A stretch of 64,000 bases of DNA from an uncultured Collinsella sp. (GCA_902494625.1 CABUUB010000001.1:17708-81707); one strand, 5' to 3'. Positions 14,263 to 58,279 are shown, numbered from the stretch's first letter. Numbers and translations are program-made. The notes: generated from the letters alone by a model not told the origin.

Positions 14263-14398
14263 TCTCGATCTGTAACACCAAACCTGATAGTTGGGCTCTA
14301 GGTGTTACAGATTGAGACGAACTGTTCAGCCGCTAACCTAACGTCTCGATCTGTAACACGTGGCGAGGAATTTGGTCTCTAACTGTTACAGATTGAGA
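14263..14398. repeat. hairpin-array repeat, locus A (2 units)
   Basis: The 15-mer TCTCGATCTGTAACA and its complement occur at 14263, 14303, 14344 and 14384, alternating in orientation with 40/41-bp spacing. Confidence 0.9.
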
Positions 14399-24040: not shown

Positions 24041-24078
24041 GGCATTTACTGTAAGGCATTTCGCGTTCCCTCACGAAC

Positions 24079-24141
24079 TTGCGGTGGAATAGTTCTCGTT
24101 TTTGGCTATTTGCTGCCCAAACAGGAACTATTCCACCGCAA
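24079..24141. terminator. 17-bp-stem hairpin between convergent genes
   Basis: TTGCGGTGGAATAGTTC-N29-GAACTATTCCACCGCAA. Confidence 0.5.
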
Positions 24142-24202
24142 CTTATAGGGGGAGAGGGGTCACATGATCTGTTTTCCTCCGTCCCCCAGGAATTACTTGG
24201 GG

Positions 24203-28552: not shown

Positions 28553-28595
28553 CCTGTTCCTCAAAACTGAAAAATTTTCGTTTTTGAGGAATAGG
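28553..28595. repeat. 43-bp AT-rich palindrome, copy 1
   Basis: cctgttcctcaaaactgaaaaattttcgtttttgaggaatagg. Confidence 0.9.
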
Positions 28596-28639
28596 ATTAA
28601 GGCAGCTCGGCCTTTCGCGAGGTATATTCGCTACAGAGT

Positions 28640-28680
28640 CTATTCCTCAAAACTGAAAATTTTTCAGTTTTGAGGAATAG
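28640..28680. repeat. 41-bp perfect palindrome, copy 2
   Basis: ctattcctcaaaactgaaaa-t-ttttcagttttgaggaatag (20-bp arms). Confidence 0.9.
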
Positions 28681-29910: not shown

Positions 29911-29953
29911 CCTATTCCTCAAAACTGAAAAATTATCGTTTTTGAGGAATAGG
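29911..29953. repeat. 43-bp AT-rich palindrome, copy 3
   Basis: cctattcctcaaaactgaaaaattatcgtttttgaggaatagg, starting 8 nt after the ATPase stop codon. Confidence 0.9.
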
Positions 29954-30979: not shown

Positions 30980-31056
30980 TGCGGGGTGGAGCAGTCTGGT
31001 AGCTCGCCGGGCTCATAACCCGGAGGTCGTAGGTTCAAATCCTGCCCCCGCGACCA
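30980..31056 (+). tRNA. metZ: initiator tRNA-Met (CAT anticodon)
   Basis: 77 nt, a near-copy of the bacterial tRNA-fMet consensus (GCGGGGTGGAGCAGTCTGGTAGCTCGCCGGGCTCATAACCCGGAGGTCGTAGGTTCAAATCCTGCCCCCGCGACCA). The anticodon stem has three G:C pairs. Position 1:72 is weak (U:G). CCA is encoded. Confidence 0.9.
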
Positions 31057-31145
31057 AGAACTTGCAGCTCGTCGGCCTGGCCGGCGAGCTTTTTTGTTAT
31101 TTCGGGACCGTGTTTTCGGTCCAATCCTCGGCCTCTCAAACAAAA

Positions 31146-31361
31146 TCTCGATCTGTAACATCTAGACCCGATTTGGGCGGCTAGGTGTTACAGATCGAGA
31201 TGTTTCGGCAGGATGGTCTTCGTTTGTCTAAATCTGTAACACGAGGGACGGATTTTGCCGAGTTACTGTTACAGATTGAGATTTTCTAGCAGGCGGGTCC
31301 CGTTTGTCTCGATCTGTAACATCTGGGGCCCATTTTGCCGAGTAACTGTTACAGATCGAGA
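31146..31361. repeat. hairpin-array repeat, locus B (3 units)
   Basis: 15-mer arms at 31146, 31186, 31227, 31267, 31307 and 31347, alternating in orientation with 25-nt spacers. Confidence 0.9.
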
Positions 31362-31399
31362 CGCTGGGTCCTCGCCCGCACGGCCTTAATCGTTGGTAA

Positions 31400-40644: not shown

Positions 40645-40784
40645 GGTTGTCCCTTCTGCCGCGTCTTCGCCGTAGTCGACGCATGACCAAATTATTATCG
40701 CAGGCTGCACAGCATTAGGTTGTTTAAAACGATGAGTGTGGCGGTCGTTTCCTCGAACGGGGCGGCGTTGTTGCTGGGGGGTCG

Positions 40785-40999
40785 TCTCAATCTGTAACAG
40801 GTGGAGGCCAAAAGTCGGTCTAGATGTTACAGATTGAGATGTTTGGTCGGACCGAGTTTGTTCGTCTCGATTTGTAACATCTAGGGTCGTTTTTGGTCTG
40901 TAGGTGTTATAGATCGAGATTTTCCGACGGAACGCTCCCGTTTGTCTCGATCTGTAACAGTAAGACCCGGTTTTGCTGAGTAACTGTTACAGATCGAGA
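40785..40999. repeat. hairpin-array repeat, locus C (3 units)
   Basis: 15-mer arms at 40785, 40825, 40865, 40905, 40945 and 40985: an exact 40-bp phase with alternating orientation. Confidence 0.9.
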
Positions 41000-41141
41000 C
41001 AAACCGACGGGCCGCCCTGCCCCATCCACCTGCCGCCACCTGATATTCGCCGATTTTCGTTGTGCCGCTGTGCCCCCATGCCATATCCTCTAGACAACTA
41101 CGCGGCATCATCGCCGCCGCGCCTACAAGAGAGGAATGTCC

Positions 41142-43172
41142 ATGACCGCACCTGCATCCAAGCTGCTCCAGCCCATTACGGTTGGCCCCCTTGAGCTCAA
41201 AAACCGCATTATGTTTCCGCCGCTGACTACCGGCTACGAGGAGCGTGACGGTTCCATCGGCGAGCGCAGCCTGGCTTTTTACGAGCGCTTGGCCCGTGGC
41301 GGCGTGAGTTACATCGTCATCGGCGACGTTGCTCCCGTCATGACCGCAAGCCCCACGCCCAAGCTGGCGACCGACGCCCAAATCCCCACGTTTAAGGCCC
41401 TGGCCGATGCCGTCCACAAGCACGGCGCCAAGGTCGCGCTGCAGCTGTTCCACCCCGAGTACGACGTGCCCGGTGTCGGCCGCATGGTCATGGGTTCCAT
41501 GGCCGCCGCCAAGGCCGCGCAGGAGGCCAAGGCCGCCGGCGACGAGGAGGCCTTTGCCGCCAAGATGGCCGAGTCCAACGAGATCCGCAATCAGGCCTAC
41601 GCCAAGCTGCACCACGACATGCAGCACTTTGTGAACGAGGCCAGCGTGGATCAGCTCACCCAGATCAAGGAGGCCATCGCTGCCTCGGCCGCCCGCGCGC
41701 AGCAGGCCGGCATCGACGCCATCGAGGTCCACGGCGACCGTCTGGTGGGTTCGCTGTGCTCCGCGATCCTCAACCAGCGCACCGACGAGTACGGTGGCTC
41801 GTTCGAGAACCGCGTCCGCTATGCGCTCGAGGTCGTCGCTGCCATTAAGGAAGCCGCGCCGCAGCTGATGGTGGAGTACAAGCTCCCCGTGATCATGGAG
41901 AACCCCGACGGCACGCCGCGCGGCAAGGGCGGCTTGCAGCCCGACGAGGCCTGCGAGTTCGCCAAGCTGCTCGAGGGCGCGGGCATCGATATGATCCAGG
42001 TCGCGCAGGCCAACCACACCGGCAACATGGGCGACACCATTCCGCCCATGGGTGCCATGCCCTACAACTGGACGCTGCCCGTGGCCGAGCGCGTCAAGGC
42101 CCTGGTCTCCGTGCCGGTGGCAACCGTCGGCCGCGTGGTCTCGGTCGAGGCCGGCGAGAAGATTCTGGAAGACGGCGCCGCCGACATCATCGCCTACGGC
42201 CGCTCGCTCATGTGCGACCCCGACATTGCGCTGAAGGCCGCCACGGGCGAGCCCATCCGCGAGTGCCTCAACTGCAACAAGGGTTGCGTCGACGCGATCC
42301 AAAACCGCAAGTACATCTCGTGCGTGCTCAACGCCGAGAACGGTGACGAGGCGACCATCGCCATCAAGCCGGGCGAGGGCGACAAGAAGATCGCCGTGGT
42401 GGGCGGCGGTATTGCCGGCCTGGAGGCCGCACGCGTGGCGGCCAAGCGCGGCTACGACGTGACCATCTACGAGGCGAGCGATCACTTGGGCGGCCAGATT
42501 GTGCTGGCGGCTGCGCCTCCGCGCAAGGACGAGATCATGCGCTCGGTCGAGTACTACGAGAAGATTCTGCCTGGCCTGGGCGTGAAGGTTGAGCTCAACC
42601 ACGTCGCTAGCCCCGCGGACCTCAACGCCGCCGACGCCGCGATTGTGGCTGTGGGCGCACACGACGTGATCATCCCCGTTCCGGGTGCCGACTCGGAGAA
42701 GGTCGTCTCGAGCTGGGACGTGCTGGCCGGCAAGGTGGAGCTCAGCGGCCGCGTCGCCGTCATTGGCGGTGGCCTGGTGGGCACCGAGACTGCCGAGTAT
42801 CTGCTGCAGCACGGCTGCGAGGTGGCGATCGTGGAGATGCTCGACAAGATTGCCGCGGGCGAGTCCGAGACCATTCTGCCGCTGATTATGAGCGACTTTG
42901 CCGAGCACAACGTGGAGCAGCACGTGAAGACCCGTCTGACCGCCATTGCCGACGAGGGCGTGGAGGCCATTCGCACCACCGAGGACGGCGCCGAGGAGCC
43001 GGTGAAGATCGCCTGCGATTACGTGGTGATGGCCGTGGGCTCCAAGGCCAACGCGTTTGATCTGGACGGCGTGACGGTGCCCGTGACCTGCGTGGGCGAC
43101 TGCTCGGGTGAGCGCACCGCCGACATCGCGAGCGCCATTCGCACGGCGTATCACGCGGCCAACGAGCTGTAG
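41142..43172 (+). CDS. Old-Yellow-Enzyme / 2,4-dienoyl-CoA-reductase-type enoate reductase (FMN TIM barrel, [4Fe-4S], FAD/NAD(P) domain)
   Basis: LKNRIMFPPL, HGDRLVGSLCS, the Cys cluster CLNCNKGCVD...C, then VAVVGGGIAGLEAA and VAVIGGGLVGTETA Rossmann motifs. The ATG at 41136 is also possible. Confidence 0.8.
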   Translation: MTAPASKLLQPITVGPLELKNRIMFPPLTTGYEERDGSIGERSLAFYERLARGGVSYIVIGDVAPVMTASPTPKLATDAQIPTFKALADAVHKHGAKVALQLFHPEYDVPGVGRMVMGSMAAAKAAQEAKAAGDEEAFAAKMAESNEIRNQAYAKLHHDMQHFVNEASVDQLTQIKEAIAASAARAQQAGIDAIEVHGDRLVGSLCSAILNQRTDEYGGSFENRVRYALEVVAAIKEAAPQLMVEYKLPVIMENPDGTPRGKGGLQPDEACEFAKLLEGAGIDMIQVAQANHTGNMGDTIPPMGAMPYNWTLPVAERVKALVSVPVATVGRVVSVEAGEKILEDGAADIIAYGRSLMCDPDIALKAATGEPIRECLNCNKGCVDAIQNRKYISCVLNAENGDEATIAIKPGEGDKKIAVVGGGIAGLEAARVAAKRGYDVTIYEASDHLGGQIVLAAAPPRKDEIMRSVEYYEKILPGLGVKVELNHVASPADLNAADAAIVAVGAHDVIIPVPGADSEKVVSSWDVLAGKVELSGRVAVIGGGLVGTETAEYLLQHGCEVAIVEMLDKIAAGESETILPLIMSDFAEHNVEQHVKTRLTAIADEGVEAIRTTEDGAEEPVKIACDYVVMAVGSKANAFDLDGVTVPVTCVGDCSGERTADIASAIRTAYHAANEL

Positions 43173-49554: not shown

Positions 49555-49896
49555 ATGAGTTTGCTGACATTTGCCAAGACGGCCTTGGGTTCTATGGTCA
49601 AGCAGCCGGTAACGGTGTGCTATCCGCATGAGAGGCTCGCGGCGCCCGAGCGCCTGCGCGGGCATATCGTCAACGACATGGACGTGTGTATCTGCTGCGG
49701 CATGTGTGCGCGTCGCTGTCCGGCGGGCGCGCTCGCAGTCGATCGCAAGGGTGGAACGTGGTCGATCGACCCGTATGCCTGCGTGGTGTGCGGTGAGTGC
49801 ATCGAGAGCTGCCCCAAGCACTGCCTGAGCATGGACACCGCCCGTACTCCAGTTGCGGCGGATAAGACTCCCACGGTAGAAACCAAGCTGGAATAG
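49555..49896 (+). CDS. echF: Ech hydrogenase 2x[4Fe-4S] ferredoxin subunit (NuoI/HycF-like)
   Basis: CICCGMCARRCP and CVVCGECIESCP motifs. Confidence 0.85.
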   Translation: MSLLTFAKTALGSMVKQPVTVCYPHERLAAPERLRGHIVNDMDVCICCGMCARRCPAGALAVDRKGGTWSIDPYACVVCGECIESCPKHCLSMDTARTPVAADKTPTVETKLE

Positions 49897-49906
49897 CGCT
49901 GGAACA

Positions 49907-49940
49907 GGGGCCGGTGGGGCAAAAATGCCCCACCGGCCCC
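49907..49940 (+). terminator. GC-rich hairpin after echF
   Basis: GGGGCCGGTGGGGC-aaaaat-GCCCCACCGGCCCC. No T-tract follows. A second, U-tailed hairpin lies at 50040-50066 inside element E1. Confidence 0.45.
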
Positions 49941-49971
49941 GCGCGTGAACGCGCGGTTGGGCTGCCACGAA

Positions 49972-50125
49972 CAAAACTATGCCGGATTACGGGGCTGGAT
50001 AGCGAACCTCCCACCATGCAGAAAAACGCAAAAACAAAACCGCAGGTAGATAGCCTGCCGTTTTTCAAAAAAAGGCTGTATGGATGAGGACTCCGACTTT
50101 AGCCCCGTAATCCGGCATAGTTTTG
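49972..50125. mobile_element. 154-bp MITE-like element E1 (25-bp perfect terminal inverted repeats, internal terminator-like hairpin)
   Basis: TIRs caaaactatgccggattacggggct / agccccgtaatccggcatagttttg. The core is aaaaCCGCAGGtagatagCCTGCCGttttt. Confidence 0.5.
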
Positions 50126-50233
50126 AAATGACATCATATTCGTAACAGCCCTTGATCTCCCATGGACGGAGGAAAACGGGCCCTTTTGTCCCGTCGATCT
50201 TGAGTCGCATCCGTTTTCCTGCGAAAACCCTCG

Positions 50234-50313
50234 TGTCTCAACTATGGTGAGACATTTGTCTCATGCCCAAAATCGAATCTGGAACATGTGTCACCTGCTC
50301 AAATTGTGTCTCA
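50234..50313. promoter_or_regulatory. cluster of TGTCTCA boxes upstream of the adhesin gene
   Basis: TGTCTCA at 50234, its complement TGAGACA at 50248, TGTCTCA at 50257, TGTGTCA at 50287 and TGTCTCA at 50307, all 50-130 nt upstream of the ATG. Confidence 0.4.
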
Positions 50314-50365
50314 TTCCGTAACTTTAGGCTGATGCTAGGTCTGAGCCTGCGAGAAGGGAGACGCG

Positions 50366-53300
50366 ATGGGTAAGTACACGAGGGGTCTCTTGGCGGTGAT
50401 ACTGGCCGTAGTGCTGGTATTGCCGGCTGCAGCATTTGCCATGCTGCCCGAGGCCAACGCCAGGTCCAGCACAGGAATGGACGGACCGGAAGCGACAAAG
50501 ATAGTCGACCACGACACCAGCAACCATTGGAAGTTCTGGGCGGGCGGCTATGACGGCAGCAAGGTCACGACGCAAAACGTCGGCCGAATTTGGACGGATA
50601 AGACGGTCCAAGCAATCGATGACGGGAAATCGGACTTTTTGACTACGCTTTCGGCGATGTCTTCGACATCCGATACGACGTCGCTGGTTTCCAAGCCGCT
50701 CGACATCGTGATGGTGCTCGATGCCTCTGGCTCAATGGATGATCCTATGGGTGGTAAAGGGTCCCCTAAGCGTATCGTTGCGCTCAAGAATGCTGCCAAC
50801 CACTTTATCGACACCATTGCCGAGCAAAACAAGAACGTTAAGGACGCGAGCAAGCAGCACCAGGTTGCCATCGTAAAGTTTGCGGGCAAGAAGAGCGATA
50901 AGGTTGGTAATGATACCTATCGCGACGACGGCAACACCTACAACTACTCCCAGACCATGTTGGGCCTCACGGTCTGCAAGGATGGGGGCGCAAAGAGCCT
51001 CAAGAACACGGTTAATTTAATCGAGCCTGCTGGCTCTACTCGTGCCGACTATGGCATGGACCTGGCCAAGGGCATCGCTGGTCGTGAAGACGCCCAGAAG
51101 ATCGTTGTGTTCTTCACCGATGGCTCTCCTACGAGTTCTAATGGTTTTGAGGCCGAGGTTGCTAAGGATGCCATCAATATCGCCAAGACCATAAAGAGTG
51201 GCGGGGCGACCATTTATACCATCGGTATCTTCAACGGTGCGAAGCCGGGCGACGATCCAACAAGCAGCCGCACGAGCAACGAGAATAAATTCATGCATGC
51301 CGTGTCGAGTAACTATCCGGATGCCACATCGTCCGTAAGCCATGGCTTTTTTGGAACTGAGGAGTGGAATGTCAATTTCGGCAACCCCGTTGCCGGTGCT
51401 AGCTACTACAAGTCGGCGACCAACGCCGCCGAGCTTGATCAGGTCTTTAAGGACATCTCGAGTGCCATTACGTCGGGCAAGGGTTTCCCGACCAAGGTCG
51501 AGGGCAACAATCCCAACGGTTCCGGCTACATCACATTCGAGGACGAGCTGGGCGCCTTTATGCAGGTCGATAGCTTTACCGGTGCCGAGTACAACGGCAA
51601 GACCTATGGGGCCGCCACCAAGTTGACCGATGGCAATATCGATACCTATACGTTTGATGGCGAGCTCGCGCATCTTGTAATTACGGTTGATCGCGCGGAC
51701 GAGAACAATCCGCAGCGCGGCGACATCGTGACGGTCAAGGTCCCCGCATCGCTCATTCCGCTGCGCCGTTTTACCGTTGACGAGTCTGCGGGCACGTTTG
51801 TGGTTGACTCCACGGATGCCATCTCGCCTATCCGCGTTGCGTATGCATCGAGCGTAAAGGCTATTGCACGCAAAAACCTGTTTACTCCCAATAACGTACC
51901 GGGACTGCAGGATTACATCAATGAGCACAAGGACGCCGATTCCAATACCGTTAGCTTCTACGCCAACAAGTGGACCGGCGACGACGTGGGCGATACGGTC
52001 GCGAGCTTTGAGCCTGCTGCCACGAACAGCTACTACTACTTCCAAAAGCTAACGCCCGTCTATACGGATGCGGCTTGCACCAAGCTTGCAACGGAAAAGC
52101 CTTCGGGCTCTAAGACCTATTGGTACAAAGATGAGTTTATGGCGCAGAACTCGTCGGGCGCGCCGTACGATGATTCCGTTTCGATCCCGGTTAAGGGAAG
52201 CGAGCTCGAGAGCTTTGAAGGCGCTTTGGTAAAGGACGGCGATCACTGGTCGATTAAGGCTGGTACTGCGCGCCTCGCCTATATTAATCAGCTCCACACC
52301 ACCAAGGAGCGTGTGGGCGGAAACCCGACGGACACCGCACGCGACGTGATCAATCCCCAGTGGAACAACACGAAGGTTGTTTCTGGTGCGACGAAGGTCA
52401 ATGTCTACCTGGGCAATAACGGCAAGATTAGCTTTACGCTCAATACCACGCCGACAACGTTGACAACTGCCGACTTTGGCCTGACCAAGGTGCTCGAGGG
52501 CCGCGACTGGACGGATGAGGACAAGTTTGAGTTTGGCCTGACGTCCGAGGACAACGCCCCGATGCCCAGGTCCACGACTGCGTTTGCAACCAAGGGCCAT
52601 GCGGACATTAGCTTTGGCGAGATTGCCTATGACAAGCCGGGCACGTATGTCTACAAGGTTAGCGAGAAGCATGCCGGGACCACGGTCGACGGCATCGCCT
52701 ACAGCAAGAACGTTGCAGAGTTCACCGTAACGGTGACACCCAACGCAAAGGGAAAGCTCGAGGCTTCTGTGAAGAAGACCTCGGGCGAGGTCGAGTTCAA
52801 GAACACCTATACCGCCAATCCCGCTGAGTCGAGCGTCACCGATCAGATTACAGTTACCAAGGTCCTGACCGGCCATAAGCTCCAGGACAATGAGTTCTCC
52901 TTTGAGCTCGTTGAGGGTGAGGGCGAGGACGCGTCGGTTGTCGAAACCGTTAAGAATGATGCCAACGGCAACGTTGCGTTCAGCGCCATCAAGTACACCG
53001 AGATCGGTCAGCACATCTATACGCTGCGCGAGGTCAAGGGCAATGCCGGCGGCATCGCCTACGACAAAACCGTCTATACCGTCGTGACGACCATCGCCGA
53101 CAATGGCAAGGGCCAGCTTGTGGCCACGCATAAGCTGAAGGGCGCCGAGGACGTCAAGAAGATTGAGTTCAAGAACTCCTACACCGTGACGCCCAAGAGC
53201 TCCAGCGTCACCGACCAGATCACCGCGACCAAGTCCCTGACCGGGCGCAAGCTTGCCGCCGGCGAGTTCTCCTTCGAGCTCGTCGAGGGCGACAAGGTCG

Positions 53301-56300
53301 TCGCCACCGGCACCAACGACGCCAGCGGTAACATCACGATGGGCACCGTCAAGTATGACAAGGCCGGAACGCATACCTACACACTGCGCGAAGTCAACGG
53401 CGGAACCACCAGCAAGGGCATCGCCTACGACGGCAAGACTTACACCATCGTGACCACCATCACCGATAAGGGCGACGGCACGCTCAAGGCCGAGCATGTC
53501 CTGAAGGATGCCAAGGCTGCCGAGTTCAAGAATTCCTACAATCTGACCCCCACTGAGTCCAGCGTCACCGACCAGGTCAAGGCGACCAAGTTCCTGACCG
53601 GGCGCGCGCTTGCCGCCGGCGAGTTCTCCTTCGAGCTCGTCGAGGGCGACAAGGTCGTCGCCACCGGCACCAACGACGCCAGCGGCAACATCACGATGGG
53701 CGCCGTGAAGTACACCGAGGCCGGCAAGCACACCTACACACTGCGCGAGGCCAAGGGCGGAACCACCAGCAAGGGCGTCTCCTATGACGCCAAGACCTAC
53801 ACCGTCGTGACCACCGTTACCGACAGGGGCGACGGCACGCTCGCGGTCAAGCATGAGCTGAAGGACGCTGGGACCGCCGAGTTCAAGAATTCCTACACCG
53901 TGACGCCCGAGGACTCCAGCGTCACCGACCAAGTCACCGCGACCAAGTTCTTGGACGGCCGTGACCTCAAGGCCGGAGAGTTCCGTTTTGAGCTCGTCGA
54001 GGGCAGTAACGTAGTTGCCACCGGCACTAACAACGCCGACGGCAAGATTGTGATGGATCCCGTCACCTACACCGCTGCCGGCGAGCACATCTACACGCTG
54101 CGCGAGACCAAGGCCGGCGCCACCGAGAACGGCATCACCTACAGCGCCGCCGAGTACACCATCGTGACCACGGTCACGGACAACGGCGACGGTACCCTCA
54201 GCGTGGAGCATAAGCTGCAGAACGACGAGAAGGCGACCTTCGAGAACGCCTATACGGTGACCCCCAAGAGCTCCAGCGTCACCGACCAGATCACCGCGAC
54301 CAAGGTCTTGACCGGCCGCGACCTCAAGGAAGGCGAGTTCTCCTTCGAGCTCGTCGAGGGCGACAAGGTCGTCGCCACCGGCAAGAACGCCGCCGACGGC
54401 AAGATCACGATGGGCGAGATCGCCTACAACGAGCCCGGCAAGCACACCTACACGCTGCGCGAGGTCCCGGGCGACGCCGGCAACGGCATCACCTACGACG
54501 GCAAGACCTACACTATCGAGACGACCGTCACCGACAACGGCAAGGGCGAGCTCGTGGTAAAGCATGAGCTGAATGGAGCCGACGAGGCGAAGTTCAACAA
54601 CGGCTACAAGCCGAATCCTGACGAGTTCAGCGTCACCGACCAGATCACCGCGAATAAGGTCCTGACCGGACGCGAACTTGCTGCCGGCGAGTTCAGCTTC
54701 GAGCTCGTCGAGGGTGAGGGCGAGGATGCCAAGGTCGTCGCCACCGGCAAGAACGCCGCCGACGGCACGATTACGATGAGCCCCGTGAAGTACGACAAAC
54801 CCGGCAAGCACACTTACACGCTGCGCGAGGTCAACGGTGGAACCACCAGCAAGGGCATCACCTACAGTGACGCCAAGTACACTATCGAGACCACCATCAC
54901 CGACAACGGCGACGGCACCCTCAAGGCCGAGCATGTCCTGAAGGACCCCGAGGCTGCGACCTTCAAGAACACCTACAGCGTGACCCCGCTCGATGCAGAG
55001 CTCGACTTTGACCTGAGCAAGGTCATCAGCGGCCGCGAGTGGACGGATGGGGACGAGTTCAGCTTTACCATTACCGCCCCCGATGGCGCCCCGCTCCCCG
55101 ATCCTGCGACCGTAACCGTGAGCAAGCACGATGCGAAGGACGGCATTGCCGCCATCAAGTTCGGCAAGATTCGCTACACGGCCACCGGAACCTACAAGTA
55201 CGAGATCCGCGAGAACGCGGGCAGCACGGTCGGCATGACGTATGACGCGCATGTCGCAACCGCCGAAGTGACCGTGACCGAGAACGGCGATGGCAGCCTG
55301 ACCGCCAACGTCACCAAGAAGGAAAACGGACGCTTTACCAACACGTACCACACTGAGCTTAACTACACCGCGGCCGGCGGTCTGTGGCTCAGCAAGTATC
55401 TGGACGGCCGCCCCATGACCGAGGGTCAGTTCACCTTTACCGTGACACCTGCTGACGATGCTTCGGCTCGCGCGCTCGGTCTGCTGCCCGGGGCTAATAG
55501 CTTCAAGTCCCCCGCAGCGGCAGAGGCAACGGTCGGACTGATCGACATTCTGGCTGGTCATGAGGTTATATTTACGCAGGCTGACGCCGGCAAGACCTTT
55601 ACGTACACCGTGGCCGAGAAGAACGACGGCCAGCCCGGTTACACCTACGACGACGCCGTGCGCACGGTGACGATCGCCATCGCCGACGACACCGCCGGCA
55701 CGCTCACTGCTACGACGACCGTTTCCGGCGGTCCCGAGGGCACGCATGAGACGGTCCACAAGAGTGGCGAGAACAAGGTCGAGAAGGCCCTGGTGCCGTT
55801 CCACAACAGTTACAGCGCTACGACCAACACGCCTGGCGGCACCGCCGCTCAGGTCGTTGCCACCAAGACTCTGACCGGCCGCCCGATGGCCGACGGCGAG
55901 TTCTGGTTCGGCATCGCCTATCAGGGTGAGCTTGTGGCATACGAAAACCTCAAGCCCAATATCGGCGGGCACGTGAGCTTTGATACGCTGCACTACGACA
56001 CTAAGATGCTTGCTAATCTTGAGGCTGCTGGGCTTGCCCATCGTACCGACAAGGACGGTAAGCTTGCCTGGACCATTAACTATACGGCCTACGAAGATTT
56101 ATTCGGGCTGCCGAATGGCGTTTCCGCTACAACGTGGAGCTTTGGCTTTAAGGTTATCGTCGTCGACAACGGTGACGGTACCCTGACGGCAACGGTCGAC
56201 TACGGCGGCGTCGAGCCCTTGTTCGAGAACGTCTACGGCGCCGAAGCCGTCGATGCCGCGCTCACCGGCACTAAGAAGCTCCAAGCTGCCGAGGGCCTGA

Positions 56301-57676
56301 CCCCGGCTGACATCACGGGCAAGTTCACCTTTACCGTGACCGCCGACGAGGCTAGTGCCCCGATGCCCGAGCGCACGACCGCAACCAACGACGCGGCTGG
56401 CAACGTGGACTTTGGCAAGATCCACTTTACGCTCGAGGACCTCAACCGCGCTCTGGGCGTGACGGACGATGCGACCGATAAGGCCGAGGCAGACGAAGCT
56501 GACGAAGCCGAGGCCGACGAGGCAGAGGCTGAAGAGGCCGACACCGATGCCAACGCCGACGAGCCCAGCGACGAGCCCGAGCCCGCAGCCCCCACCGCTC
56601 CGCGCTCGCACACCTTTACTTACATGGTGACCGAGTCCGGTAGTGCCCCTGGCGTGACCAATGACACCAACGCCACGCGCAAGGTTTCCTACACCGTGTC
56701 TGACGACGGTGCCGGGCATCTGAGCGTCAAGCGCGAAGGCGACGACGGTGCTGCCTTCACGTTTACCAACACCTACGGCGTGGCACCTACCGATTCGTCC
56801 GTGACCGATCAGGTCAAGACAGTCAAGCGCCTGACTGGACGCGACCTTGCAGCAGGCGAGTTCACGTTTGAGCTGCTCGAGGACGACGTGGTTGTCGCTA
56901 ACGGCACCAACGACGCTAACGGCACCGTGACGCTGAGCCCGATTCGCTACGAGGTACCCGGCACGCACACGTACACGCTGCGCGAGGCTTGCCCCAACGC
57001 GCTCGGCCTGTACAAGGGCGTCACCTATGACGGCACGACCTACACCGTCGTGGCCACCGTCTCCGACAACGGCGACGGCACGCTGACCGCGACGCACAAG
57101 CTCGAGGGAACCACCGAGTCGGCTGGCTTTACCAACAAGTATCACGCCATGCCCACTCAGGTCTCCATCGGCGCCATCAAGGTGCTTGAGGGACGCGAGC
57201 TCAAGAAGGACGAGTTCAGCTTTAAGCTCGTTGGCGAGGGCATCGAGTCCACCGTCACCAACGATGCCGACGGCAAGATCAACTTCGACAAGTTCGAGTA
57301 CGACGAGCCTGGTACGTACGTCTACACCATCGCCGAGGTCAAGGGCGACGAGGTCGGTATGACCTACGACAAGTCCGTCTTTACCGCGACCGTCAACGTG
57401 GCCGACGACGGCGAGGGCAACCTCAAGGCGAACGTCGCCTTTACCAAGGGCGACAAGAGCGTCGAGGGTATCGTGTTCAACAACACGTACAAGAAGCCCG
57501 AGACGCCCGTGCCGACGCCCGATCCCGGCACGCCCAAGACCGTGACGAACATCGTCAAGACGGTCAAGGGTTTCCTGCCCACCACGGGTGACCAGCAGGC
57601 CGCCGCACTGCTCATGGCATTCGTCATCGCCATGGCCGGCGTCGGAGCCCTGGTCTGGGGTATCCGTAAGCGCTAG
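50366..57676 (+). CDS. giant LPXTG-anchored adhesin: signal peptide, vWFA domain, about 15 pilin/Spy0128-type isopeptide-fold repeats
   Basis: 2436 aa. Signal peptide. MIDAS motif DIVMVLDASGSMDD. Many repeats of ...VTDQITATKVLTGRxLxxGEFxFELVEG...YTLREV...GIxYD...YTIxTTVTDNGDGTL... Acidic EADEADEAEADE linker. C-terminal LPTTG, TM helix and RKR. Confidence 0.9.
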   Translation: MGKYTRGLLAVILAVVLVLPAAAFAMLPEANARSSTGMDGPEATKIVDHDTSNHWKFWAGGYDGSKVTTQNVGRIWTDKTVQAIDDGKSDFLTTLSAMSSTSDTTSLVSKPLDIVMVLDASGSMDDPMGGKGSPKRIVALKNAANHFIDTIAEQNKNVKDASKQHQVAIVKFAGKKSDKVGNDTYRDDGNTYNYSQTMLGLTVCKDGGAKSLKNTVNLIEPAGSTRADYGMDLAKGIAGREDAQKIVVFFTDGSPTSSNGFEAEVAKDAINIAKTIKSGGATIYTIGIFNGAKPGDDPTSSRTSNENKFMHAVSSNYPDATSSVSHGFFGTEEWNVNFGNPVAGASYYKSATNAAELDQVFKDISSAITSGKGFPTKVEGNNPNGSGYITFEDELGAFMQVDSFTGAEYNGKTYGAATKLTDGNIDTYTFDGELAHLVITVDRADENNPQRGDIVTVKVPASLIPLRRFTVDESAGTFVVDSTDAISPIRVAYASSVKAIARKNLFTPNNVPGLQDYINEHKDADSNTVSFYANKWTGDDVGDTVASFEPAATNSYYYFQKLTPVYTDAACTKLATEKPSGSKTYWYKDEFMAQNSSGAPYDDSVSIPVKGSELESFEGALVKDGDHWSIKAGTARLAYINQLHTTKERVGGNPTDTARDVINPQWNNTKVVSGATKVNVYLGNNGKISFTLNTTPTTLTTADFGLTKVLEGRDWTDEDKFEFGLTSEDNAPMPRSTTAFATKGHADISFGEIAYDKPGTYVYKVSEKHAGTTVDGIAYSKNVAEFTVTVTPNAKGKLEASVKKTSGEVEFKNTYTANPAESSVTDQITVTKVLTGHKLQDNEFSFELVEGEGEDASVVETVKNDANGNVAFSAIKYTEIGQHIYTLREVKGNAGGIAYDKTVYTVVTTIADNGKGQLVATHKLKGAEDVKKIEFKNSYTVTPKSSSVTDQITATKSLTGRKLAAGEFSFELVEGDKVVATGTNDASGNITMGTVKYDKAGTHTYTLREVNGGTTSKGIAYDGKTYTIVTTITDKGDGTLKAEHVLKDAKAAEFKNSYNLTPTESSVTDQVKATKFLTGRALAAGEFSFELVEGDKVVATGTNDASGNITMGAVKYTEAGKHTYTLREAKGGTTSKGVSYDAKTYTVVTTVTDRGDGTLAVKHELKDAGTAEFKNSYTVTPEDSSVTDQVTATKFLDGRDLKAGEFRFELVEGSNVVATGTNNADGKIVMDPVTYTAAGEHIYTLRETKAGATENGITYSAAEYTIVTTVTDNGDGTLSVEHKLQNDEKATFENAYTVTPKSSSVTDQITATKVLTGRDLKEGEFSFELVEGDKVVATGKNAADGKITMGEIAYNEPGKHTYTLREVPGDAGNGITYDGKTYTIETTVTDNGKGELVVKHELNGADEAKFNNGYKPNPDEFSVTDQITANKVLTGRELAAGEFSFELVEGEGEDAKVVATGKNAADGTITMSPVKYDKPGKHTYTLREVNGGTTSKGITYSDAKYTIETTITDNGDGTLKAEHVLKDPEAATFKNTYSVTPLDAELDFDLSKVISGREWTDGDEFSFTITAPDGAPLPDPATVTVSKHDAKDGIAAIKFGKIRYTATGTYKYEIRENAGSTVGMTYDAHVATAEVTVTENGDGSLTANVTKKENGRFTNTYHTELNYTAAGGLWLSKYLDGRPMTEGQFTFTVTPADDASARALGLLPGANSFKSPAAAEATVGLIDILAGHEVIFTQADAGKTFTYTVAEKNDGQPGYTYDDAVRTVTIAIADDTAGTLTATTTVSGGPEGTHETVHKSGENKVEKALVPFHNSYSATTNTPGGTAAQVVATKTLTGRPMADGEFWFGIAYQGELVAYENLKPNIGGHVSFDTLHYDTKMLANLEAAGLAHRTDKDGKLAWTINYTAYEDLFGLPNGVSATTWSFGFKVIVVDNGDGTLTATVDYGGVEPLFENVYGAEAVDAALTGTKKLQAAEGLTPADITGKFTFTVTADEASAPMPERTTATNDAAGNVDFGKIHFTLEDLNRALGVTDDATDKAEADEADEAEADEAEAEEADTDANADEPSDEPEPAAPTAPRSHTFTYMVTESGSAPGVTNDTNATRKVSYTVSDDGAGHLSVKREGDDGAAFTFTNTYGVAPTDSSVTDQVKTVKRLTGRDLAAGEFTFELLEDDVVVANGTNDANGTVTLSPIRYEVPGTHTYTLREACPNALGLYKGVTYDGTTYTVVATVSDNGDGTLTATHKLEGTTESAGFTNKYHAMPTQVSIGAIKVLEGRELKKDEFSFKLVGEGIESTVTNDADGKINFDKFEYDEPGTYVYTIAEVKGDEVGMTYDKSVFTATVNVADDGEGNLKANVAFTKGDKSVEGIVFNNTYKKPETPVPTPDPGTPKTVTNIVKTVKGFLPTTGDQQAAALLMAFVIAMAGVGALVWGIRKR
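52829..54985 (+). repeat. six tandem ~357-bp (119-aa) intragenic repeats
   Basis: The TC(C/G)AGCGTCACCGA(C/T)CAG landmark recurs at 52829, 53201, 53558, 53915, 54272 and 54626. Confidence 0.85.
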
Positions 57677-57814
57677 GCACGCTGGCAGCGCCCGGGGCCA
57701 AAAGGCCCCGGGCGGCCGGCGGGGTTAAATCCCGACCTACTCCTACCCCCAGCCGCCACGGAGGCATCTCCCTCCTCCGTGGCGGCGCTTTTGTGCGTAG
57801 GCGAGAAGGGCCTG

Positions 57815-57972
57815 CCACGAAACCGGCCCATCTACTACGTTTAGCCCCTTACCCCCAACCATGCCAAAAAGCGCGAAAACAAAACCGCAGGTAGAACGCC
57901 TGCGGTTTTGTTCAAAACGAAGGTATGGTCAGGGGTATCGAGTCAAACGTAGTAGATGGGCCGATTTCGTGG
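57815..57972. mobile_element. 158-bp MITE-like element E2 (28-bp TIRs, 1 mismatch; internal terminator hairpin)
   Basis: TIRs ccacgaaaccggcccatctactacgttt / aaacgtagtagatgggccgatttcgtgg. The core is aaaaCCGCAGGtagaacgCCTGCGGttttg. Confidence 0.5.
57885..57912 (+). terminator. intrinsic terminator of the adhesin gene (inside E2)
   Basis: CCGCAGG-tagaacg-CCTGCGG followed by TTTTGTT. Confidence 0.6.
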
Positions 57973-58065
57973 CGCGCGGTTCCGGCTGATCCCTTGGGGA
58001 CGGAGGAAGACGGATCATTTTGGTCCCGCGAGGCTTGCAGGGGCACTCGTGCAGGGCCGCCCGAA

Positions 58066-58219
58066 CAAAACTATGTCGGTTTACTACGATGAATTCGACA
58101 TTCCCGACCATGACTGCATTTTTCTAAATATTGCAAGCGTTCTACCTGCGGTTTTGCAAGCGCGCAATTTACCGTGGTCGAAGGCGGGCGATTCATCGTA
58201 GTAAACCGGCATAGTTTTG
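58066..58219. mobile_element. 154-bp MITE-like element E3 (29-bp TIRs, 1 mismatch; core inverted and degenerate)
   Basis: TIRs caaaactatgtcggtttactacgatgaat / attcatcgtagtaaaccggcatagttttg. The outer ends and flanks (cgaacaaaactatg... / ...catagttttgaaatg) match E1. Confidence 0.5.
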
Positions 58220-58279
58220 AAATGGTATTAAATCGGTGGTAGCCATTTTGCTATGCCGGGGCGGTCGGTCGTTGGGTAA

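What the first reader, a model, noticed from the sequence alone, without database searches (positions are those of the whole stretch)
49972..58219. Three TIR-bounded ~154-158-bp elements bracket the 7.3-kb adhesin gene; their arms differ but co-vary
E1 spans 49972-50125, E2 spans 57815-57972 and E3 spans 58066-58219. Each has 25-29-bp terminal inverted repeats around a shared core, aaaaCCGCAGGtaga(t/a)(a/c)gCCTGC(c/g)Gtttt.

E1 and E3 share outer termini and flanks (cgaacaaaactatg... / ...catagttttgaaatg) and have identical length (154 bp). Their inner arm halves differ (ccggattacggggct versus tcggtttactacgatgaat), yet each is matched by its own partner arm. E2 uses a third arm sequence, again matched by its partner. 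The stem is therefore maintained by compensatory change. That points to selection on secondary structure (DNA cruciform or RNA) or to independent MITE subfamilies.

The core of E3 is inverted relative to E1 and E2.

E1 and E3 are direct homologous copies flanking the adhesin gene plus E2. This arrangement could mediate gain or loss of the adhesin by recombination. The cores of E1 and E2 also supply the U-tailed terminators for the Ech operon and the adhesin gene.
Basis: seen in the sequence. Interest (0 to 1): 0.62.

Follow-up and report, generated by a model that had tools for sequence, protein, structure and literature searches.

The report
Collinsella palindromic intergenic repeat family
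The three hairpin-forming elements around the adhesin gene are real copies of a previously undescribed, roughly ten-copy family of ~180-bp palindromic intergenic repeats confined to Collinsella gut bacteria; they resemble ERIC/REPIN/MITE repeats and do not cause the gain or loss of the adhesin in the way first proposed.

Summary
E1, E2 and E3 are long imperfect palindromes, with DNA-fold z-scores of -11.9, -10.1 and -6.4.

They belong to a dispersed family found only in aerofaciens-like Collinsella. It occupies at least 12 intergenic sites next to unrelated housekeeping genes, with roughly ten copies per 2.3-Mb genome. There are three subfamilies: A (E2), B (E1) and C (E3).

The arms co-vary across the family: 27 of 59 stem pairs change on both sides. 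83.7% of cells are paired, against 74% in shuffles and 35-43% when the partners are slid.

The best-conserved part is an asymmetric apex 15-mer, AAAACCGCAGGTAGA. It is not the small terminator-like hairpin.

No Rfam family matches, and there is no promoter, ORF or target-site duplication. Orientation relative to transcription is not fixed. G:T and A:C mismatches are about balanced, and one copy is transcriptionally silent. These points favour a DNA-level element over an RNA gene.

Units of hairpin plus a ~35-nt 'module' form tandem arrays that differ between species. Subfamilies B and C replace each other at three loci.

Genomes without the adhesin keep E1, E2 and E3 contiguous, so E1xE3 recombination is not the route of adhesin gain or loss. 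The Ech operon and the adhesin gene each have their own terminator upstream of the elements.

Verdict: a new member of a known kind, of moderate interest.

The parts
49907..49940 (+). GC-rich hairpin that follows the Ech operon and is its own terminator-like structure. It is not part of the repeat.
   Evidence: 15-nt arms, 100% complementary (I12). The Ech RNA signal falls more than 10-fold here.
49960..50148 (+). E1, a subfamily B hairpin with inner arms ATTACGGGGCT. The perfect 25-nt arms are 49972-49996 / 50101-50125, and pairing extends to GCTGCCACGAA / TTCGTAACAGC.
   Evidence: HMM 145 bits; dG -53.3, z -11.9.
50036..50050 (+). Apex motif AAAACCGCAGGTAGA of E1.
   Evidence: The motif is near-invariant across the family.
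50154..50188 (+). Degenerate copy of the 'module' (GATCTCCCATGGACGGAGGAAAACGGGCCCTTTTG), 3' of E1.
   Evidence: by comparison with the module consensus GATCCCC.GGGGACGGAGGAAAACGGATCATTTTGG.
50185..57812 (+). The 7.6-kb segment present in this genome but absent from six related species. It holds the adhesin's upstream region, the gene 50366-57676 (VWA plus 13 FctA isopeptide domains) and its terminator 57749-57792.
   Evidence: (joint 50179->57812 in the RNA-seq strain).
57805..57982 (+). E2, a subfamily A hairpin with termini GCCACGAAA / TTTCGTGGC and arms CCCATCTACTACGTT / AACGTAGTAGATGGG.
   Evidence: I1; HMM 164 bits; dG -62.3, z -10.1.
57881..57895 (+). Apex motif of E2. It forms the 5' half of a 14-bp apical hairpin, 57878-57891 / 57899-57912.
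   Evidence: (I15).
57988..58023 (+). Module copy GATCCCTTGGGGACGGAGGAAGACGGATCATTTTGG, between E2 and E3.
   Evidence: The module is multi-copy in isolates, at about 5-15x single-copy depth, and is transcribed from several loci.
58054..58233 (-). E3, a subfamily C hairpin with inner arms TTTACTACGATGAAT. Its outer frame is direct with E1 and its interior is inverted.
   Evidence: I2; HMM 126 bits on the - strand; z -6.4.
58141..58155 (-). Apex motif of E3, on the minus strand.
58246..58262 (+). Solo copy of the hairpin terminus (CCATTTTGCTATGCCGG). It can pair with E3's right end.
   Evidence: Read. The small extra stem appears in the fold.
24164..24193 (-). Reverse-complement copy of the module, next to a hairpin of a different repeat family (24067-24153).
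   Evidence: I6.

Best explanation
E1, E2 and E3 are members of a Collinsella-specific family of ~180-bp palindromic intergenic repeats. The family works like ERIC, REPIN or MITE elements and acts at the DNA level; it is not a set of RNA genes or terminators.

**Anatomy.** Each unit is a long imperfect hairpin. Its unpaired apex carries an invariant, asymmetric 15-mer, AAAACCGCAGGTAGA. A separate ~35-nt 'module' often follows.

**Shown here.**
- The family is dispersed at about ten copies per genome.
- It is inherited at orthologous sites.
- The apex motif and the outer arms evolve more slowly than synonymous sites.
- Whole units are duplicated, deleted or replaced by another subfamily.

**Inferred.**
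- A whole hairpin is copied or overwritten as one piece. This could happen through a single-stranded fold-back intermediate, or by gene conversion anchored in the shared termini.
- The hairpin and the apex motif are what a trans-acting protein recognises. That protein could be a transposase- or recombinase-like enzyme, or a nucleoid protein.
- These two points would explain why the two arms of every copy match although the copies differ.
- The tandem arrays then expand, contract and take up DNA such as the adhesin segment, by recombination in the spacers between units.
For: **Distribution.**
- The core 18-mer gave at least 120 hits in GTDB genomes. They are essentially all Collinsella or close Coriobacteriaceae, apart from one unrelated coding-region hit, L114.
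- An HMM finds 167 copies in 120 loci, all but one intergenic, at 12 or more distinct sites. Neighbours include glycerate kinase, GntR, PTS IIB, MarR and rho.
- Isolate assemblies show about 3-8x single-copy depth on the arms and apex.
- The family is absent upstream of rho in other Coriobacteriia and in one distant Collinsella.

**Hairpin and co-variation.**
- Fold z-scores run from -6 to -12.
- 83.7% of cells are paired, against 74.3% in shuffles (0 of 500 reach the observed value) and 35-43% with slid partners.
- 412 cells have a change on both sides, against 199 in shuffles. 27 of 59 pairs have a change on both sides.

**DNA level rather than RNA level.**
- No Rfam family matches, including Collinsella-1, RF01700.
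- No sigma-70-like promoter is found.
- The rho-upstream copy has 1-8 reads, against 300-490 on its neighbours.
- Orientation relative to the flanking genes varies.
- G:T mismatches on the apex-defined + strand roughly equal A:C mismatches: 123 against 99 within loci, and 75 against 59 in helices 1-2.

**Constraint in place.**
- In orthologous groups not selected through the motif, the motif is 0.94-1.00 identical and the outer arms 0.91-0.99. The rest of the apex is 0.85-0.93.
- Third codon positions of the neighbouring genes are 0.82-0.89 identical.

**Turnover of whole units.**
- The arrays seen are E1-E2-E3, E2-E3, E1-adhesin-E2-E3, E1-E2'-adhesin and Ech-adhesin with no unit.
- Subfamilies B and C occupy the same site in different species at three loci.
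- Compensatory change in hairpins is a described property of REPINs (PMC3116915).
Against: - No partner protein was found or searched for systematically.
- No target-site duplication is seen. The one filled-versus-empty comparison is a 263-nt indel that includes the module, which looks like unequal recombination rather than transposition.
- Paralogues in one genome are only 62-68% identical, so there is no sign of recent bursts.
- Conservation of each copy at its own site across species fits a host function at least as well as a selfish element.
- Within loci most stem changes are uncompensated single mismatches. Structure is therefore only weakly maintained once a copy is in place.
- The RNA-seq strain differs from every reference I could use, so the expression evidence is coarse.
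- The first set of loci was collected through the exact 18-mer, which biases that set.
Confidence: 0.45

Rival explanations
1. Cis-acting RNA structure. When read-through transcription crosses an element, the ~60-90-bp duplex becomes a substrate for a double-strand-specific RNase or a barrier to exonucleases. This would uncouple or stabilise neighbouring mRNAs, as reported for Correia and ERIC elements. The reference to Correia and ERIC rests on my own knowledge.
For: - E2' and the adhesin leader are transcribed as one continuous stretch at a depth of about 40-100.
- E3 lies in the 3' region of the response-regulator transcript.
- All three window copies sit just 3' of a gene and point the same way as that gene.
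- G:T exceeds A:C in the apical hairpin, 33 against 10.
- The stems co-vary.
Against: - Orientation relative to transcription is not fixed at other sites. The rho, GntR and divergent-gene sites differ.
- The rho copy is essentially untranscribed.
- Mismatches in the long stems show no strand bias.
- The best-conserved feature is an unpaired asymmetric motif, not the stem.
- No read-end pile-ups occur inside the elements.
Confidence: 0.22
2. A host structural or regulatory DNA site, like a BIME. In this view the apex motif, displayed on a bendable A/T-tract-flanked palindrome or cruciform, is the binding site of a chromosomal protein such as a nucleoid-associated protein, a topoisomerase or a regulator. 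The copies would be kept by selection on the host and would not be mobile.
For: - The motif and outer arms are more conserved in place than synonymous sites.
- Copy number is low and positions are stable across species.
- The elements occur in mosaics with other palindromic repeat families and with the module.
- No strand bias is seen.
Against: - Units are freely gained, lost and swapped between species without visible consequence.
- The neighbouring genes share no common function.
- No candidate protein is known.
Confidence: 0.2
3. Invertible switch (inverton). In this view the apex segment flips between the inverted arms under a site-specific invertase and switches a neighbouring gene such as the adhesin.
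For: - Long inverted arms flank an asymmetric conserved segment.
- At the E3 site and the rho site, the apex is found in both orientations relative to a constant outer frame.
- E1 lies upstream of an adhesin, a typical target of phase variation.
Against: - The two orientations at a site belong to different subfamilies, with about 60-70% identity. This is replacement, not a flip.
- No opposite-strand joints occur in about 60-100x RNA coverage of E2'.
- No promoter-like sequence lies inside the elements.
- The neighbouring genes examined (Ech subunits, adhesin, two-component system) include no invertase.
Confidence: 0.04
4. A family of independently transcribed small RNAs, with the conserved 15-mer as the seed and the module as the terminator.
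For: - A single-stranded motif is conserved at the tip of a co-varying stem.
- Tandem arrays with a 250-nt period resemble multicopy sRNA loci. This comparison rests on my own knowledge.
- The module ends in a stem followed by TTTTGG.
Against: - No promoter is found.
- There is no discrete abundant transcript, and reads run on past the module.
- One copy is silent.
- The module occurs in either orientation relative to the apex.
Confidence: 0.05

Closest known systems
ERIC (enterobacterial repetitive intergenic consensus; also called IRU) elements
   Same: - Both are imperfect palindromes of roughly 130-180 bp.
- Both are strictly intergenic.
- Copy number is low in some hosts.
- Copies are kept at the same sites in related species.
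- Stem changes are compensated.
- Neither has an ORF, an obvious target duplication or a known transposase.

The ERIC properties come from my own knowledge; PMC3116915 lists ERICs among MITE-like repeats.
   Different: - The sequence is unrelated and the host is an actinobacterium of the class Coriobacteriia.
- This family has an invariant asymmetric 15-mer in the apex.
- It forms tandem arrays with an intervening module.
- Subfamilies replace each other at one site.
REPINs (REP doublets forming hairpins) mobilised by RAYT transposases
   Same: - Both are long hairpins built from two inverted halves.
- Compensatory changes are common in both.
- Inheritance is mostly vertical and persistence is long.
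- Both cluster in intergenic space (PMC3116915).
   Different: - REPINs occur in hundreds of copies. Here there are about ten.
- In REPINs the conserved parts are the two REP ends. Here the apex is conserved as well.
- No RAYT gene has been linked to this family, and none was searched for.
TIR-type bacterial MITEs (Correia/NEMIS, RUP, bcr1 and the like)
   Same: Both are small, non-coding, bounded by 25-60-bp inverted repeats and divided into subfamilies. Insertions and deletions differ between strains.
   Different: - No target-site duplication is present.
- The outermost termini are not the most conserved part.
- Paralogues are old, at 62-68% identity.
- No parent IS with these ends has been seen.
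BIMEs (mosaics of REP/PU units and other motifs in E. coli)
   Same: Both are mosaics of palindromic units in alternating orientations, mixed with other short conserved motifs. Here those are the module and two further hairpin families. Both sit after terminators and between genes.
   Different: The units are five times longer, and the binding proteins (IHF, gyrase and Pol I in E. coli, from my own knowledge) are unknown here.

Membership tests
TIR-type MITE | Terminal inverted repeats on a short non-coding element | tested here: met
   The arms are 25, 61 and 29 nt. A candidate short ORF through the apex was rejected because its start codon varies between copies (ATG, ATA, ATC, ACG).
TIR-type MITE | Target-site duplication flanking each copy | tested here: not met
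   The flanks of E1-E3 and of representatives of about 25 sequence clusters show no direct repeat. The empty site in strain X7 differs from the filled site by a 263-nt unit that includes the module.
TIR-type MITE | An autonomous partner IS with the same ends, or near-identical young copies | tested here: inconclusive
   Paralogues are 59-87% identical. No gene is bracketed by inverted copies in about 200 loci. The one bracketed gene, in L069, is a peptidase-like housekeeping gene, judged by eye from its translated 3' end. No whole-genome search was possible.
REPIN / REP-RAYT system | A hairpin made of two inverted conserved halves, with compensatory changes | tested here: met
REPIN / REP-RAYT system | Tens to hundreds of copies per genome | tested here: not met
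   At 80% likeness, 1 to 15 contig pieces per query (E1, E2 plus module, or E3) match in 2.2-2.3-Mb isolate assemblies. Depth ratios are 3-8x on the arms and apex. These are lower bounds.
REPIN / REP-RAYT system | A single-copy Y1 (RAYT) transposase gene flanked by the repeats | not tested
   No tool allowed a scan of a whole Collinsella genome for such a gene.
Intrinsic (Rho-independent) terminator | A GC-rich stem followed by a T-run, conserved across members, with transcripts ending there | tested here: not met
   Only E1's apex passes the scan. The 3' half of the apical stem is not conserved: in helix 3, 7 of 12 pairs depart only by unpaired cells. Ech RNA falls before E1.
Curated RNA families (Rfam 15, including Collinsella-1, RF01700) | A match to the covariance model | tested here: not met
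   Only a tRNA reaches a gathering score. At E<=10 only generic long-hairpin miRNA models hit, and RF01700 does not appear.
Integron attC site | R''/R' boxes (RYYYAAC / GTTRRRY) at the ends, and an adjacent integron integrase | tested here: not met
   The termini CAAAACTATG / CATAGTTTTG and GCCACGAAA / TTTCGTGGC do not fit the consensus, which I recalled from my own knowledge. The neighbouring genes are Ech subunits, the adhesin and a two-component system.
Inverton (phase-variable invertible segment) | Both orientations present within one population, with a promoter inside | tested here: inconclusive
   No inversion joints appear in the RNA reads over E2', and no promoter-like site is found. 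Both orientations occur between species, but as different subfamilies. No raw DNA reads were available.

The most novel reading that the evidence does not exclude
The hairpins could be the sites of a dedicated recombination system in Coriobacteriia, a REPIN-RAYT-like or attC-like arrangement. A trans-acting enzyme would read the invariant apex 15-mer on fold-back DNA. It would overwrite hairpins, which would explain the B/C replacement at three loci, and would insert or excise DNA between units. On this reading the adhesin segment is a cassette placed between E1 and E2.
Probability: 0.1. Interest if true: 0.7.

Novelty: new member of a known kind. Interest (0 to 1): 0.36.

Why it matters
- Collinsella is an abundant and medically studied gut genus. 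No paper in the searchable library describes repeat families in it.
- The family marks intergenic hot spots where strains differ by whole units and, at this locus, by a 7.6-kb isopeptide-domain adhesin gene. It can therefore serve for strain typing and helps explain assembly breaks and differences in surface proteins.
- The invariant asymmetric apex motif on a co-varying stem gives a concrete handle for finding the protein that recognises such elements. That protein is still unknown for ERIC-like repeats.

Tried and rejected
- **Rfam.** I searched at gathering thresholds and at permissive thresholds. Nothing relevant matched.
- **Fourth copy at 42301.** It has two mismatches, lies in a coding region and is chance.
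- **Small ORF through the apex (ATG...KTKPQVE...YG*).** I rejected it because the start codon and the stop positions are not conserved between classes (read).
- **Sigma-70 promoters inside or beside the elements.** None was found.
- **Phage origin.** Both lie near the ends of their held stretches, which suggests host flanks; the rest are chance.
- **Orientation statistics from an ad hoc GC3 gene caller.** This was too noisy because antisense ORFs were miscalled. I used manually checked sites instead.
- **RNA-seq at base resolution.** The only raw-read runs come from a strain 3-10% divergent from every reference I could use, so read ends and depth inside the elements are unreliable.
- **Integron attC and target-site duplications.** I looked for both by eye and found neither.
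- **Covariance model.** I did not build one, because the profile HMM already recovered all copies.
Full report
**1. Observation**

- E1 has perfect 25-nt arms, 49972-49996 / 50101-50125.
- E2 has 61-nt arms, 79% complementary, 57805-57865 / 57922-57982.
- E3 has 29-nt arms, 97% complementary, 58066-58094 / 58191-58219.

Pairing continues a little outside the stated ends. E1 runs about 49960-50148 and E3 about 58054-58233.

Folded as single strands, the three reach -53.3, -62.3 and -51.6 kcal/mol. Their z-scores are -11.9, -10.1 and -6.4 against 200 dinucleotide-preserving shuffles, and no shuffle folds as well.

The 15-mer AAAACCGCAGGTAGA occurs exactly three times in 64 kb: + in E1, + in E2 and - in E3. 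The chance expectation is 0.04.

BLAST and a profile HMM find no further copy in the window.

E1 and E3 share the outer frame CGAA-CAAAACTATG...CATAGTTTTG-AAATG in direct orientation. E3's interior nevertheless matches E1 best as its reverse complement, at 67.7% against 61.8%. 'Core inverted' is therefore right.

E3 has only the 5' half of the 'shared core'.

**2. What the elements belong to**

The 18-mer AACAAAACCGCAGGTAGA gave at least 120 hits among 185,579 species-representative genomes. Essentially all are Collinsella or close Coriobacteriaceae, so the window is from an aerofaciens-like Collinsella.

Clustering of the flanks showed about 12 or more unrelated genomic sites, each shared by up to 16 species.

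An HMM built from 69 copies (alignment A1) found 167 copies in 120 loci, all but one intergenic.

Checked neighbours are housekeeping genes with nothing in common: glycerate kinase, a GntR regulator, PTS IIB, MarR and rho. In the window the neighbours are the Ech hydrogenase operon, a VWA plus 13xFctA adhesin and a LuxR-type two-component system.

Upstream of rho, every aerofaciens-like Collinsella with enough flanking sequence has one or two copies. Other Coriobacteriia and one distant Collinsella have none.

I laid isolate assemblies of 2.2-2.3 Mb on E1, E2 and E3. This gave 1-15 matching pieces per query and 3-8x single-copy depth on the arms and apex. The family therefore numbers roughly ten per genome, as a lower bound.

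Consensus comparison shows three subfamilies.
- A: E2-like, with termini GCCACGAAA.
- B: inner arms ACGGGGCT, which includes E1.
- C: inner arms ACTACGATGAAT, which includes E3.

Identity is 72-87% within a subfamily and 59-70% between subfamilies.

**3. Anatomy and constraint**

The family-wide consensus is GCCACGAAA..GGCCCATCTACTACGTT...ACCATG..(A-rich loop)..AAAACCGCAGGTAGA...TTTT..AAAA...TATGGT...AACGTAGTAGATGGGCC..TTTCGTGGC.

I counted pairs on A1 with a 59-pair hairpin.
- 83.7% of cells form standard pairs. Column-preserving shuffles give 74.3% (0 of 500 reach the observed value), and slid partners give 35-43%.
- 412 cells have a change on both sides, against 199 in shuffles.
- 27 pairs have a change on both sides.

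RNAalifold alone supports the outer 23 pairs, and 16 of them show compensatory change.

The apical mini-hairpin shows no co-variation, and its 3' half is often unpaired (helix 3).

I then took 65 copies that lack the exact 18-mer, which removes my ascertainment bias. In these the 15-mer is still close to 2 bits per position, while its would-be partner varies: CCTGCGG, CTTGCAA, GAGCCGT and others.

Within four orthologous groups found independently of the motif, identities are as follows.

| Region | Identity |
|---|---|
| Apex motif | 0.94-1.00 |
| Outer arms | 0.91-0.99 |
| Inner arms | 0.86-0.93 |
| Rest of the apex | 0.85-0.93 |

Third codon positions of the flanking Ech and response-regulator genes are 0.82-0.89 identical in a comparable set of species. 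The motif and the outer arms are therefore under constraint, or are being homogenised, where they sit.

**4. RNA or DNA?**

The evidence favours DNA.
- No Rfam model matches, including Collinsella-1, RF01700.
- No sigma-70-like promoter is found.
- Within loci, most stem variation consists of single mismatches. G:T on the apex-defined + strand (123) is about as common as A:C (99). Double compensations are few.
- Across classes the long stems give 75 G:T against 59 A:C. Only the apical hairpin leans towards G:T, at 33 against 10.
- Orientation relative to the flanking genes differs between sites.

The stranded RNA-seq comes from a related strain and gives three observations.
- The copy upstream of rho has 1-8 reads, while its neighbours have 300-490.
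- E2' and the adhesin leader are covered continuously at about 40-100 reads, with no read-end pile-ups.
- The module is read from several loci on both strands.

The elements are thus transcribed passively or not at all.

One caveat applies. The RNA-seq strain is 3-10% divergent from every reference available to me, so depth inside the elements is unreliable.

**5. Arrays, the module and the adhesin**

Many hairpins are followed about 25 nt later by a separate motif, GATCCCC.GGGGACGGAGGAAAACGGATCATTTTGG, here called the module. In other copies the module precedes the hairpin by about 35-40 nt. In the window it lies at 50154-50188 (degenerate), at 57988-58023, and reversed at 24164-24193. It occurs in either orientation relative to the apex.

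Hairpin plus module form tandem arrays with a ~250-nt period.

At the Ech/two-component-system locus I found five arrangements.
- E1-E2-E3 contiguous, without the adhesin, in six species. The flanks on both sides align at more than 0.9 identity.
- E2-E3 without E1 (L052).
- E1-adhesin-E2-E3 in the window, in L010 and in isolate X26.
- E1-E2'-adhesin in L018, in L057 and in the RNA-seq strain.
- Ech-adhesin with no unit at all in strain X7.

The segment specific to the window is about 50185-57812. It replaces the ~35-nt linker between module 1 and E2.

The start of the adhesin leader (TCGCATCCGTTTTCCTGCGAAAA) resembles the linker plus the start of a left arm. The X7 'empty' site differs from the filled one by a 263-nt unit without any target duplication. 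Both points fit unequal or illegitimate recombination between units, and do not fit transposition or an E1xE3 crossover.

At three sites, subfamilies B and C are alternative occupants of the same outer frame in different species. These are the E1 site, the E3 site and the site upstream of rho. The apex sometimes faces the other way. This is replacement of a whole unit, not a simple flip.

**6. Terminator claim**

The Ech operon and the adhesin gene each end in their own GC-rich hairpin before the element, at 49907-49940 and 57749-57792. The second is followed by TTTTG.

Ech RNA drops from about 200 to about 10 by 49895-49925 (the strain-divergence caveat applies).

Only E1's apex passes the terminator scan. 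The apical stem is not a conserved feature of the family. The cores are therefore not the terminators of these genes in any general sense.

**7. Mechanism**

*Shown:*
- a dispersed, Collinsella-restricted family of palindromic repeats with three subfamilies;
- hairpin potential kept in every copy although paralogues have diverged by 30-40%;
- an invariant asymmetric apex motif;
- gain, loss and replacement of whole units;
- no autonomous transcription.

*Inferred:*
- The unit is copied or overwritten as a whole. The route could be a fold-back single strand, as proposed for REPINs (PMC3116915), or gene conversion anchored in the shared termini.
- The apex motif on the hairpin is a protein recognition site.

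I rate this DNA-level, ERIC/REPIN/MITE-like reading at about 0.45. The rivals are as follows.

| Rival | Confidence |
|---|---|
| Cis-acting RNA duplex in read-through transcripts | 0.22 |
| Host protein-binding structural site, like a BIME | 0.20 |
| sRNA genes | 0.05 |
| Inverton | 0.04 |

**8. Comparison and novelty**

The family behaves most like ERIC elements and REPINs.
- It is not a REPIN by copy number, and its link to a RAYT is untested.
- It is not a classical TIR-MITE, because it lacks target duplications and its termini are not the most conserved part.
- It is not a terminator, not an attC site and not a known Rfam family.

I found no description of such repeats in Collinsella or Coriobacteriia in the searchable literature.

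It is a new member of a known kind. Its interest is moderate and rests on three things: the invariant apex motif, the replacement of subfamilies at fixed sites, and the arrays that bracket a variable adhesin.

Noticed in passing
window 14302-14359, 31142-31379, 40779-41005: A second palindromic repeat family, TCTCGATCTGTAACA / TGTTACAGATCGAGA, is present in several copies. One cluster lies just downstream of the tRNA gene at 30980-31053.
   Followed up: no
window 28553-28680 and 29911-29953: A third palindromic repeat family, CTATTCCTCAAAACTGAAAA / TTTTCAGTTTTGAGGAATAG, is present as near-perfect hairpins.
   Followed up: no
window 24067-24153; also L008, L069 and L134 beside the main elements: A fourth hairpin family, GTTGCGGTGGAATAGTTC...GGAACTATTCCACCGCAAC, co-occurs with the main family in other genomes. 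In the window a reversed module copy (24164-24193) follows it. Together these give BIME-like mosaics of several repeat families.
   Followed up: partly
L020, L021 and L069 flanks: Another recurrent hairpin, GGGACGGGGCTATTTTGACTAC...GTAGTCAAAA..CCGTCCC, lies next to elements at other loci. It is absent from the window.
   Followed up: partly
window 52788-55086 (inside the adhesin gene 50366-57676): The gene contains 357-nt tandem repeats that encode FctA/Spy0128 isopeptide domains. Repeat number differs between strains: contig joints skip 1084 and 1797 nt in X7, and the E1-E2 distance is 6.2 kb in isolate X26.
   Followed up: partly
window 58246-58262: A solo copy of the hairpin terminus (CCATTTTGCTATGCCGG) lies 25 nt beyond E3 and can pair with E3's right end. 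It may be the remnant of a lost unit.
   Followed up: no
window 57878-57912 (E2 apex): From memory only: the apical hairpin AACCGCAGG...CCTGCGGTT resembles helix 45 at the 3' end of 16S rRNA (AACCGUAGGGGAACCUGCGGUU in E. coli). Only the 5' half is conserved in the family. I did not test this.
   Followed up: no
L129 about 2131 (rho locus of C. aerofaciens ATCC 25986): RNA-seq 5' ends pile up at about 2131-2132, which marks the likely start of the rho transcript downstream of the element. The long conserved rho leader follows.
   Followed up: no
L007, L014, L031, L042 and L100 (flank classes 5/6 and 5/17): The exact 18-mer AACAAAACCGCAGGTAGA also occurs at an orthologous site in five genomes without any recognisable hairpin around it. 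It is either a decayed copy or an independent use of the motif.
   Followed up: no
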